In this document: positions 3,217-3,477 of the stretch, one piece after another
Position numbering within the stretch: the stretch's first letter is position 1
Layout of the letters: each line of letters opens with the position of its first letter
Assembly (NCBI GenBank): GCA_050049995.1
Contig: JASFVE010000021.1
Location: forward strand, 1-26,785
DNA length: 26,785 nucleotides
Direction: 5' to 3'
Source of the DNA: Chlamydiota bacterium
GTDB lineage: Bacteria > Chlamydiota > Chlamydiia > Chlamydiales > SM23-39
Translations under genes and position numbers: made by a program
The notes under the pieces: model-generated
Databases searched by the model: none
What the model was told of the DNA's origin: nothing
Seen by the model: only the letters and a program-made list of their open reading frames with translations

Positions 3217-3477
3217 ATGTCTGCTATACAAAGCGTTATTAATGTCCTCACTGCTGATCGAACAATTCCTGTTTCATATTCTTCAGATGATACCATTCAA
3301 AATCTTAAAGAGAAGCTTTTTCATGATGAGTGTGTTCCAGTAGCAAATCAAAGATTTGTAGTAGAATATGGGATAGGACAACTATGGAAAAAAGTAGAGC
3401 CGGAAGACGGTGATCTTGTTAGCAAGTATCAAGATGCTAAGTGTATTCGAGCATTTTGGAAAGCTGTTCAATCATAA
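3217..3477 (+). CDS. Stand-alone eukaryote-type ubiquitin-like (beta-grasp) protein lacking C-terminal Gly-Gly
   Basis: TIPVSYSSDDTIQNLKEKLFHDECVPVANQRFV aligns without gaps to ubiquitin [33 protein letters not shown], and EDGDLVSKY aligns to EDGRTLSDY. Strong SD aaggag upstream. Confidence 0.8.
   Translation: MSAIQSVINVLTADRTIPVSYSSDDTIQNLKEKLFHDECVPVANQRFVVEYGIGQLWKKVEPEDGDLVSKYQDAKCIRAFWKAVQS

What the first reader, a model, noticed from the sequence alone, without database searches (positions are those of the whole stretch)
3217..3477. Eukaryote-type ubiquitin homolog without di-Gly and with an 8-aa insertion at the Lys48 loop
Seen, by-eye alignment: matches to ubiquitin T12, I13, D21, T22, I23, N25, K27, K29, E34, P37, Q41, R42, E51, D52, G53, S57 and Y59. 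About 8 extra residues (in EYGIGQLWKKV) lie between the Ile44 strand and EDG. The protein ends in ...FWKAVQS instead of LRLRGG and has no signal peptide. Known: ThiS/MoaD-type bacterial beta-grasp proteins do not look like this, and GG is needed for E1 activation. Bacteroides BfUbb is a GG-less ubiquitin but carries a signal peptide. Inference: a host-derived, non-conjugatable ubiquitin mimic that could block E1/E2/DUB or ubiquitin receptors.
Basis: partly seen in the sequence, partly recalled or inferred. Interest (0 to 1): 0.8.

Follow-up and report, generated by a model that had tools for sequence, protein, structure and literature searches.

The report
Divergent GG-less ubiquitin homolog in a chlamydia
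A small gene in an environmental chlamydia-like bacterium encodes a real but strongly diverged copy of eukaryotic ubiquitin that cannot be attached to other proteins and probably acts by simple binding, perhaps inside the host cell.

Summary
ORF 3217-3477 (+, 86 aa) has a Shine-Dalgarno site. An 84%-identical ortholog lies in the same gene order in a second Chlamydiota genome, and the pair shows purifying selection (dN/dS 0.28).

It is a ubiquitin-family protein:
- Pfam PF00240 gives E 1.8e-5, 24.8 bits, 0.6 bits under the cut-off.
- A local alignment to a ubiquitin unit scores 72, against 23.8±4.4 for shuffles.
- The AlphaFold model (pLDDT 77.9) matches ubiquitin in all 50 listed Foldseek rows.
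- The 8-residue insertion (EYGIGQLW) lengthens the β3-β4 hairpin.
- No Gly follows G65, so there is no GG tail.

Only these two genomes hold this protein, in every collection searched. The genome has no ThiF/E1 match. It does have 16 F-box-like, 3 U-box and 2 C48-peptidase matches and a type III export gate.

Best reading: a non-conjugatable ubiquitin-like module that acts by non-covalent binding, probably on host ubiquitin machinery. Secretion and the target are inferred, not shown. The ubiquitin tail motif is gone, so blocking E1 or deubiquitinases through the tail is unlikely. This is a new member of a known kind and of moderate interest.

The parts
3217..3477 (+). 86-aa stand-alone ubiquitin-like gene (Ubl), stop codon included
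   Evidence: ORF listed. PF00240 E 1.8e-5. Ubiquitin is the best solved sequence match. Predicted beta-grasp fold, pLDDT 77.9. All 50 listed Foldseek PDB rows are ubiquitin or ubiquitin variants. VIA Z 12.2. Ortholog at 84% identity. dN/dS 0.28.
3204..3208 (+). Shine-Dalgarno-like AGGAG, 8 nt before the ATG
   Evidence: Read directly from the sequence. The ortholog has AAGAG at the same place.
3364..3387 (+). Codons E50-W57 (EYGIGQLW): the 8-residue insertion that lengthens the β3-β4 hairpin
   Evidence: An 8-column gap in all 10 other chlamydial ubiquitin-like domains lies opposite these residues. In the model, strands 45-53 and 56-60 form a long hairpin. Residues 45-66 are identical in the two orthologs.
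3460..3474 (+). C-terminal tail K82-S86 (KAVQS) in place of the ubiquitin LRLRGG tail; no Gly
   Evidence: This is the least confident part of the model (mean pLDDT 58 for residues 81-86). It also varies between the orthologs.
3061..3084 (+). Terminator-like hairpin after the upstream LRR gene, so the Ubl gene probably starts a new transcript
   Evidence: Pattern scan: 10-pair stem followed by a T-rich tail. This is a consensus match only.
3492..4511 (+). Downstream gene, 14 nt after the Ubl stop: C45/AAT-family Ntn hydrolase starting MGC (context, probably co-transcribed)
   Evidence: PF03417 E 2.6e-7. NCBIfam C45_proenzyme E 7e-16, below its cut-off. 191 homologs in many phyla. The Cys at position 3 is invariant in 42 aligned sequences. 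The same order is found in the ortholog genome.
1962..3038 (+). Upstream leucine-rich-repeat protein (context)
   Evidence: Weak LRR Pfam hits. No F-box was found in its first 80 residues. An LRR gene also lies upstream in the ortholog genome.

Best explanation
**What it is.** The ORF is a real, expressed-type gene of an environmental Chlamydiota bacterium. It encodes a stand-alone, strongly diverged member of the eukaryotic ubiquitin family.

**What is shown.**
- It keeps the ubiquitin beta-grasp core and many N-terminal-half residues, including L8, T12, I13, K27, K29, Q41, R42 and the EDG turn.
- It has lost the LRLRGG tail.
- It has gained an 8-residue extension of the β3-β4 hairpin.
- The genome holds no detectable E1-type (ThiF) enzyme.

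**What is inferred.** With no C-terminal Gly and no E1, the protein cannot be a conjugated modifier. It must work as a non-covalent ubiquitin-like binding module.

**Most likely role (inferred).** It is one more piece of this organism's host-ubiquitin toolkit, alongside its F-box-like, U-box and C48-peptidase genes. It would be exported into the eukaryotic host, where it binds a ubiquitin or ubiquitin-like receptor or some other partner. The binding surface would be built from the remnant Ile44 patch (L11, V48) and the conserved extended hairpin (residues 45-66). There it would act as a decoy or adaptor.
For: **A real gene.**
- Shine-Dalgarno site plus ATG, with no upstream in-frame start.
- An intact 86-aa ortholog at 84% identity in the same LRR-Ubl-C45-HDC order, in the MAG 'Chlamydiae bacterium CG10_big_fil_rev_8_21_14_0_10_35_9'.
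- dN 0.087 against dS 0.313, Fisher p about 0.001-0.002.
- G+C 0.36, like its neighbours.

**Ubiquitin family.**
- PF00240 E 1.8e-5.
- All 60 listed PDB sequence hits are ubiquitin, ubiquitin fusions or engineered ubiquitin variants. The best single unit scores 19.7 bits, E 0.008.
- Smith-Waterman z is about 11 against shuffles.
- An AF2 model built from the two orthologs alone already gives the order β-β-α-β-β-short helix-β, and its listed Foldseek rows are all ubiquitin or ubiquitin variants, best E 1e-4.
- The 12-row model has pLDDT 77.9, and all 50 listed Foldseek rows are ubiquitin or ubiquitin variants (best E 3.4e-6, TM 0.63-0.75).
- A search that does not use Foldseek gives Z 12.2-9.7 for 50 ubiquitin-fold domains.

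**Not conjugatable.**
- No Gly after G65.
- 0 ThiF matches in a 98%-complete genome, while the control search rings in 12 of 14 genomes.
- No PADLOC hit for this gene or either neighbour.

**Host-ubiquitin context in the same genome.**
- 16 F-box-like matches, 10 over the cut-off.
- 3 U-box matches.
- 2 Peptidase_C48 matches.
- One FHIPEP/SctV export-gate gene.

**Ubiquitin-like domains recur in this bacterial family.** PF00240 matches at E<=0.001 occur in 13 of 103 genomes, and over the cut-off in 8 of 103. The control shows 0 of 14.

**The hairpin is the most conserved part.** There are 0 substitutions in residues 45-66, against 14 in the other 64 residues.

**Precedents for ubiquitin-like proteins without GG.**
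- Hub1/UBL5 binds non-covalently (abstracts of PMC8431670 and PMC4141198).
- BfUbb is a bacterial ubiquitin without GG (passages of PMC3352274).
Against: **No evidence of expression or export.** No RNA data were found and no secretion predictor was available.

**Type III export of a ubiquitin fold may be difficult.** According to the abstract of PMC13351618, type III systems cannot unfold mechanically robust substrates such as ubiquitin. A ubiquitin fold would therefore need to be labile to be exported.

**The canonical recognition surface is only partly kept.**
- H68 aligns with F80.
- V70 aligns with K82 or A83.
- The insertion sits exactly at the A46-G47 turn that borders the Ile44 patch.
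- Binding to canonical ubiquitin receptors is therefore uncertain.

**Weak points in the sequence evidence.**
- The C-terminal strand is variable (W81 is Cys in the ortholog) and modelled with low confidence.
- The Pfam score is 0.6 bits under the curated cut-off and covers only the first half of the domain.
- The 12-row alignment used for the better model was made of domains chosen by their PF00240 match, so that model leans towards the fold.

**Narrow distribution.** The protein is known from only two related genomes, so the evidence for conservation rests on one pairwise comparison.
Confidence: 0.5

Rival explanations
1. The protein works inside the bacterium as a partner or regulator of the downstream C45/AAT-family Ntn hydrolase, with which it forms a two-gene operon.
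For: Only 14 nt separate the Ubl stop from the hydrolase start. The two genes have the same orientation. A terminator-like hairpin lies before the Ubl gene, and none was listed in the 14-nt gap between the two genes. The arrangement is the same in the second genome.
Against: Hydrolase homologs at 70% and 50% identity in two other genera of the same family have no Ubl gene upstream. 191 homologs exist in many bacterial phyla, while the Ubl is found in only two genomes. The hydrolase therefore does not need it. The two genomes that share the arrangement are close kin, so the shared order is weak evidence.
Confidence: 0.1
2. The gene is a decaying relic of an old transfer of a ubiquitin gene. It is still open by chance or only weakly constrained, and has no present function.
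For: Distribution is very narrow, two genomes only. The ortholog genome carries a truncated, stop-ridden second copy just upstream, so copies of this gene do decay. The tail motif is lost and the last strand varies. The Pfam match covers only half of the domain.
Against: Both orthologs keep the full 86-codon frame and the ribosome-binding site. dN/dS is 0.28 with significantly fewer replacement changes than silent ones. A 22-residue block that includes the insertion is invariant. The model folds as a complete beta-grasp domain.
Confidence: 0.15
3. The protein is attached to targets, or serves as an acceptor, by chemistry that does not use the C-terminus. Examples are effector-type ligation through the residue equivalent to ubiquitin Arg42, or use as the proximal acceptor for host chain-building enzymes through the lysines that align with K27, K29 and K63.
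For: R46 (=R42), Q45 (=Q41), K31 (=K27), K33 (=K29) and K75 (=K63) are kept. That C-terminus-independent ubiquitin ligation exists (Legionella SidE and MavC effectors) is recalled, not taken from a call.
Against: No SidE phosphodiesterase-domain match was found in the genome, but the control search was silent everywhere, so this is uninformative. Nothing in the neighbourhood suggests a ligase. The idea rests on a handful of retained residues.
Confidence: 0.07

Closest known systems
Eukaryotic ubiquitin (Pfam PF00240, beta-grasp ubiquitin-like fold)
   Same: The predicted fold order is the same. There are 25 identities in a pairwise alignment with a 76-residue ubiquitin unit, including L8, T12, I13, K27, K29, Q41, R42, the E51-D52-G53 turn, Y59 and K63. 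Ubiquitin itself is the best sequence and structure match.
   Different: Identity is only about 26-28% over the fold. There is an 8-residue longer β3-β4 hairpin, a 3-residue longer N-terminus, no LRLRGG tail, and K48 is not aligned (V60). The gene is bacterial, with a Shine-Dalgarno site, and is not a poly-ubiquitin or ribosomal fusion.
BfUbb, the secreted ubiquitin homolog of Bacteroides fragilis
   Same: Both are bacterial stand-alone ubiquitin homologs without the terminal Gly-Gly. BfUbb (8hm1_A) appears among the fold matches at rank 37. Its features were read in passages of PMC3352274.
   Different: BfUbb is 63% identical to human ubiquitin, has a 28-residue signal sequence and ends in Cys (PMC3352274). 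It kills related Bacteroides by targeting a periplasmic PPIase (abstract of PMC11467351). The protein here is far more diverged, shows no signal sequence, ends in Ser, carries the hairpin insertion, and sits in an obligate intracellular lineage.
Hub1/UBL5 and other non-conjugated ubiquitin-like proteins or domains (Rad23/Dsk2-type UBL domains)
   Same: These are small ubiquitin-fold proteins or domains that lack a usable di-Gly and act by non-covalent binding (abstracts of PMC8431670 and PMC4141198). Hub1 (4pyu_A, Z 10.3), Dsk2 (Z 10.9) and Rad23 (Z 10.9) UBLs are among the fold matches.
   Different: There is no specific sequence match to those families: Pfam reports only PF00240 and, weakly, PF14560. 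The similarity concerns the mode of action, which is itself inferred, and does not show membership.
Eukaryote-like ubiquitination-related proteins of environmental Chlamydiae (F-box, BTB, RING/U-box families with LRR/TPR)
   Same: Same phylum and the same theme of host-ubiquitin manipulation. This genome has 16 F-box-like and 3 U-box matches, and LRR genes flank the Ubl. The families are described in PMC4209131 (passages read).
   Different: That paper's main text has 0 occurrences of 'ubiquitin-like', 'ubiquitin domain', 'ubiquitin homolog' or PF00240. Here the mimic is of ubiquitin itself, not of a ligase adaptor.

Membership tests
Ubiquitin family (Pfam PF00240) | Sequence match to the family profile at or above the curated cut-off | tested here: inconclusive
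   24.8 bits against a cut-off of 25.4, E 1.8e-5, residues 8-48 only. The protein collection's precomputed annotation lists PF00240.30 for this protein and its ortholog. In the six-frame genome search it scores 24.0 bits, under the cut-off.
Ubiquitin family (Pfam PF00240) | Beta-grasp fold in the order β-β-α-β-β-short helix-β | tested here: met
   Prediction only. Elements are E6-11, E16-21, H27-38, E45-53, E56-60, H68-71 and E76-81, with pLDDT 77.9. All 50 listed Foldseek rows are ubiquitin or variants. VIA Z reaches 12.2. The model made from the two orthologs alone gives the same order of elements and also finds ubiquitin.
Conjugated ubiquitin-like modifiers (ubiquitin, NEDD8, SUMO, ISG15 type) | C-terminal Gly (Gly-Gly), exposed or released by processing | tested here: not met
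   The sequence ends KAVQS and the last Gly is G65. The ortholog ends KVVQS.
Conjugated ubiquitin-like modifiers (ubiquitin, NEDD8, SUMO, ISG15 type) | A cognate E1 (ThiF-type adenylating enzyme) and an E2 available to the protein | tested here: not met
   In its own genome there are 0 ThiF matches, with the control ringing in 12 of 14 genomes. There are 0 UQ_con matches, but that control was silent and so is uninformative. Use of host enzymes could not be tested, and the missing Gly argues against it.
BfUbb-type secreted bacterial ubiquitin | N-terminal Sec signal sequence | tested here: not met
   This was a crude test only. The highest 11-residue hydropathy mean is 1.48, there is no basic N-region, and residues 5-11 align with ubiquitin strand 1. 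No dedicated predictor was available.
BfUbb-type secreted bacterial ubiquitin | High identity to ubiquitin (63%) and a C-terminal Cys | tested here: not met
   Identity is 26-28% in structure alignments and 25 identities in the pairwise alignment. The protein ends in Ser. BfUbb features are from PMC3352274 passages.
Bacterial ubiquitination-like defence operons (Bil/Bub type: UBL with E1, E2 and JAB peptidase) | Neighbouring E1, E2 and JAB genes, and a UBL ending in Gly | tested here: not met
   The neighbours are an LRR protein and a C45 hydrolase. PADLOC gives no hit for the three proteins. There is no ThiF in the genome.
ThiS/MoaD sulfur-carrier beta-grasp proteins | Match to the ThiS/MoaD profiles, a C-terminal Gly-Gly, and a ThiF/MoeB partner | tested here: not met
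   A Pfam scan at E up to 10 lists only PF00240 and PF14560. There is no terminal Gly and no ThiF match in the genome.

The most novel reading that the evidence does not exclude
An environmental chlamydia injects its own ubiquitin look-alike into its protist host. The protein cannot be conjugated. Its conserved, lengthened β3-β4 hairpin gives it a new binding surface, so it acts as a decoy or cap: it occupies ubiquitin or ubiquitin-like receptors (for example those of the proteasome or of autophagy), or it terminates chains as a dead-end acceptor. This would be the first effector of an intracellular bacterium that mimics ubiquitin itself, as opposed to the enzymes that handle it.
Probability: 0.3. 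Interest if true: 0.65.

Novelty: new member of a known kind. Interest (0 to 1): 0.4.

Why it matters
Intracellular bacteria are known to copy the enzymes and adaptors of the host ubiquitin system. Copies of ubiquitin itself are rare in bacteria. [quoted passage not shown]

This gene shows that at least one genus of environmental Chlamydiota keeps a stand-alone, non-conjugatable ubiquitin relative under selection. PF00240-type domains also occur in 13 of 103 genomes of its family.

If the protein is exported, it would be a simple and tractable probe of which ubiquitin-binding proteins of protists matter during infection. If it is not, it is one more lineage-specific eukaryote-like protein of unknown role.

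Tried and rejected
**Binding to the downstream hydrolase.** The complex-prediction job for Ubl plus the C45 hydrolase gave no verdict (score 0.00, controls not run). It counts neither for nor against binding.

**Expression.** No RNA holder was listed among 7 runs that hold all or part of window 2900-4600.

**Wider relatives.**
- The word-index search found 2 proteins, itself and the ortholog.
- Exhaustive phmmer over 1.84 billion representatives found 251 hits at E<=0.001. Of the 150 listed, 149 are proteins of 246-1688 aa with 3-13 matched stretches. The 12 whose sequence I read, in part, look like poly-ubiquitin or ubiquitin-like repeat proteins. None has the same insertion. P0041 has a 4-residue longer hairpin with a W-K pair.
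- Scans of genome contigs and metagenome contigs each returned only the CG10 ortholog.
- The protein query over 401 Chlamydiota genomes gave 5 matches at E<=0.01. They are G000 itself; G283, a true ubiquitin domain; G298 and G040, where I saw no ubiquitin-like domain; and G035, which I did not examine.

**Profile libraries.** PADLOC gave no hit, NCBIfam gave no hit for the Ubl, and Rfam gave nothing at gathering score.

**F-box in the upstream LRR protein.** Pfam found none in its first 80 residues. No match on this contig appears among the 16 F-box-like matches.

**Second PF00240 match in the genome.** The match in C62 (E 0.06, inside an 846-aa ORF) was dismissed as chance. One of the 13 family-level matches (G425, in a 650-aa frame, E 7.5e-4) also looks like chance.

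**Uninformative genome searches.** OTU, UQ_con and SidE_PDE found nothing in the genome, but their control searches were silent everywhere.

**ESM Atlas.** The nearest clusters score 0.87-0.91 and include archaeal and eukaryotic ubiquitin-family clusters. These are leads only and were not used.

**Viral fold library.** Matches are ubiquitin insertions of pestiviruses and ubiquitin-family proteins of giant viruses (best E 4e-5). They give no clue to a donor.

**Earlier findings of this scan.** Nothing was found in three look-ups.

**Literature.** Searches found no paper describing a stand-alone ubiquitin homolog in Chlamydiae.

**Not done.** A phylogeny against named ubiquitin, NEDD8 and Rad23 sequences was not made. 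No named sequences of those proteins could be fetched, and 86 diverged residues would give little resolution.

Full report
**Where the window lies.** The window is contig 21 of a 1.88-Mb, 122-contig genome that is 98% complete by marker genes. Its only close relative for this gene is the MAG 'Chlamydiae bacterium CG10_big_fil_rev_8_21_14_0_10_35_9'. The window carries typical genes of environmental chlamydiae:
- two tandem LRR proteins;
- three eukaryote-type protein kinases;
- transporters;
- a pyruvoyl histidine-decarboxylase-family gene with a GadC-like antiporter.

**The observation.** ORF 3217-3477 (+) encodes 86 residues. AGGAG at 3204-3208 lies 8 nt before the ATG. The 11 open codons upstream hold no alternative start. 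A terminator-like hairpin at 3061-3084 follows the upstream LRR gene.

HMMER aligns residues 6-49 with ubiquitin residues 3-45. A pairwise alignment with a ubiquitin unit taken from polyubiquitin hit P0138 gives 25 identities.

The similarity is not chance:
- The local score is 72 against 23.8±4.4 for shuffles; 0 of 2000 shuffles reach it.
- The C-terminal part alone scores 26 against 14.8±3.0; 27 of 5000 shuffles reach it.
- Pfam PF00240 gives E 1.8e-5. Its 24.8 bits lie 0.6 bits under the curated cut-off, and the match covers only the first half of the domain.

In a MAFFT alignment with 10 ubiquitin-like domains from related chlamydiae, all 10 have an 8-column gap opposite E50-W57 (EYGIGQLW). 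The chain ends KAVQS. It has no Gly after G65 and stops 2-3 residues before the Gly-Gly position.

**The gene is real.** The second genome (G401, the CG10 MAG) has an intact 86-codon ortholog at 84% protein identity and 88% DNA identity. It sits in the same order: LRR gene, Ubl, C45 hydrolase 14 nt downstream, then the convergent decarboxylase gene.

dN is 0.087 and dS is 0.313, a ratio of 0.28. Replacement changes are significantly rarer than silent ones, Fisher p about 0.001-0.002. This rests on a single pair of sequences. The 14 substitutions avoid residues 45-66, which include the insertion. Four of them fall in the last eight residues. G+C is 0.36, like the neighbouring genes.

**The fold.**
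- With only the two orthologs as alignment, AlphaFold2 gave a weak model (pLDDT 59.3) that already had the ubiquitin order of elements. Its listed Foldseek rows were all ubiquitin or ubiquitin variants, best E 1e-4.
- With 12 rows (the two orthologs plus 10 chlamydial ubiquitin-like domains) the model reached pLDDT 77.9 and pTM 0.65. Its elements are E6-11, E16-21, H27-38, E45-53, E56-60, H68-71 and E76-81.
- All 50 listed Foldseek PDB rows for that model are ubiquitin or ubiquitin variants (best E 3.4e-6, TM 0.63-0.75, identity 23-28%). BfUbb is at rank 37.
- A search that does not depend on Foldseek gave Z 12.2-9.7 for 50 ubiquitin-fold domains.

One caveat applies. The extra rows were chosen by their PF00240 match, so the better model leans towards that fold. 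The two-row model is the less biased check.

In the model the insertion does not form a loose loop. It lengthens strands β3 and β4 into a long hairpin (45-53 and 56-60).

**Distribution.**
- The word-index search found only the protein itself and the ortholog.
- An exhaustive phmmer run over 1.84 billion representatives found, apart from its own cluster, only long proteins with 3-13 matched stretches among the 150 listed. Those I read are polyubiquitins or ubiquitin-like repeat proteins.
- Scans of the species-representative genomes and of the metagenome contigs returned only the CG10 ortholog.
- Within 401 Chlamydiota genomes the protein query gave one strong match, itself.

This particular protein is therefore known from two related genomes only.

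Ubiquitin-family domains as such recur in the same bacterial family. PF00240 matches at E<=0.001 occur in 13 of 103 genomes, including this one, and in 8 of 103 over the cut-off. The control genomes show 0 of 14. One of the 13 looks like chance. These domains sit in varied architectures. One example is a near-canonical ubiquitin ending RGGG and fused to a Cys-rich C-terminal region in G283.

**How it probably works.** Two things are shown:
- The protein lacks the C-terminal Gly that E1 enzymes need. That requirement is established knowledge.
- The genome has no ThiF-type E1, while the same search rings in 12 of 14 control genomes.

It also has no PADLOC match, and no E1, E2 or JAB neighbours that would mark a bacterial ubiquitination-like defence operon. 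It therefore cannot be a conjugated modifier by known C-terminal chemistry.

The rest is inference. The same genome holds 16 F-box-like matches (10 over the cut-off), 3 U-box matches, 2 C48-peptidase matches and a type III export-gate gene. The organism is therefore equipped to act on a host ubiquitin system. That matches what is described for environmental chlamydiae (PMC4209131, passages read).

The simplest reading is a non-covalent ubiquitin-like module aimed at the host. It would use L11 (=L8), V48 (=I44), R46 (=R42) and the invariant extended hairpin as its binding surface. Non-covalent ubiquitin-like proteins without di-Gly are known: Hub1/UBL5 (abstracts). A bacterial ubiquitin without GG is also known: BfUbb (PMC3352274, passages).

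- The tail that E1 and deubiquitinases grip (LRLRGG) is replaced by KAVQS.
- The last strand differs between the orthologs (AFWKA against VYCKV).
- H68 aligns with F80, and V70 with K82 or A83. The alignment of this strand is uncertain.
- The insertion sits at the A46-G47 turn that borders the Ile44 patch.

Competitive blocking of E1 or deubiquitinases through the tail is thus unlikely. Binding to canonical ubiquitin receptors is open.

Export is untested. An abstract states that type III systems cannot unfold mechanically robust substrates such as ubiquitin (PMC13351618). This protein would therefore have to be labile, or leave the cell by another route.

**Rivals.**
1. *Partner of the downstream C45/AAT hydrolase.* The 14-nt spacing and shared orientation are conserved in both genomes. 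But homologs of the hydrolase at 70% and 50% identity in two other genera have no Ubl upstream. The hydrolase family is widespread in other phyla.
2. *A decaying relic.* The narrow distribution favours this. So does a truncated, stop-containing extra copy of the first 180 nt just upstream of the ortholog in G401. The intact frames, dN/dS of 0.28 and the invariant hairpin block argue against it.
3. *Ligation or acceptor use that bypasses the C-terminus.* This rests on the retained R42, K27, K29 and K63 equivalents. Nothing supports it beyond those residues.

**Comparison and novelty.** The protein is a member of the ubiquitin fold and, by E-value, of the ubiquitin family. It is not a conjugated modifier, not a BfUbb-type secreted ubiquitin, not a ThiS/MoaD carrier, and not part of a bacterial ubiquitination-like operon (see the membership table).

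I found no paper describing a stand-alone ubiquitin homolog in Chlamydiae. The main text of PMC4209131 has no occurrence of 'ubiquitin-like', 'ubiquitin domain' or 'ubiquitin homolog'. The protein collection's precomputed annotation already marks both orthologs as PF00240.

I rate it a new member of a known kind: eukaryote-like ubiquitin-family proteins of host-associated bacteria. It has two unusual features, the lengthened hairpin and the missing tail. Interest is moderate. It would rise if export and a host partner were shown.

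Noticed in passing
L017:1221-1400 (G401, upstream of the ortholog): A truncated, degenerate tandem copy of the first ~180 nt of the Ubl gene lies between the LRR gene and the intact ortholog. It includes the insertion region and has in-frame stops (CGA to TGA, TGG to TAG). The window itself has no such remnant at 3039-3216.
   Followed up: partly
L005:1366-2151 / L008 (G283): A 261-aa ORF holds a near-canonical ubiquitin domain (PF00240, 86.4 bits) ending RGGG, fused to a Cys-rich C-terminal region of about 125 aa. 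G140 (L016) has a ubiquitin-like domain followed by a similar Cys-rich region. The C-terminal region was not identified.
   Followed up: no
L011, L013, L014 (G276, G319, G429; one genus): Proteins of about 200 aa appear to hold two ubiquitin-like domains in tandem, joined by a conserved Cys..HCP linker, with no Gly-Gly end. The layout resembles ISG15. Only the second domain was matched by Pfam here.
   Followed up: no
window 3492-6754: A C45/AAT-family Ntn hydrolase lies next to a convergent pyruvoyl histidine-decarboxylase-family gene (4518-5354, -) and a GadC-like amino-acid antiporter (5351-6754, -). Some sources name relatives of the hydrolase 'carcinine hydrolase/isopenicillin-N N-acyltransferase family', and its Cys3 is invariant. 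This may be an amine-forming or acid-resistance module with an amide hydrolase. In G158 the hydrolase is followed instead by a 405-aa ORF that I did not identify.
   Followed up: partly
L017:1743-2763 (G401): The ortholog of the C45 hydrolase is split near its 3' end into two overlapping frames (312 aa and 100 aa). This is either a frameshift or an assembly error.
   Followed up: no
window 14699-20241: Three consecutive genes (512, 631 and 644 aa) each carry a eukaryote-type protein kinase domain (PF00069, E 6e-28 to 7e-14).
   Followed up: no
window 20-3038: Two tandem leucine-rich-repeat proteins (591 aa, open at the contig start, and 358 aa) lie just upstream of the Ubl gene. No F-box was detected in the second one, although the genome has 16 F-box-like matches elsewhere.
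   Followed up: partly
window 20225-21154 (-) and 22986-24434 (+): A family-11 glycosyltransferase (fucosyltransferase-type, PF01531) and a HAMP-adenylate/guanylate cyclase.
   Followed up: no
L015 (G307, frame open at the locus edge): A frame with a PF00240 domain is followed by a further stretch that ends in RLRG. By eye, the N-terminal part looks like the end of a RING or U-box. This was not tested.
   Followed up: no
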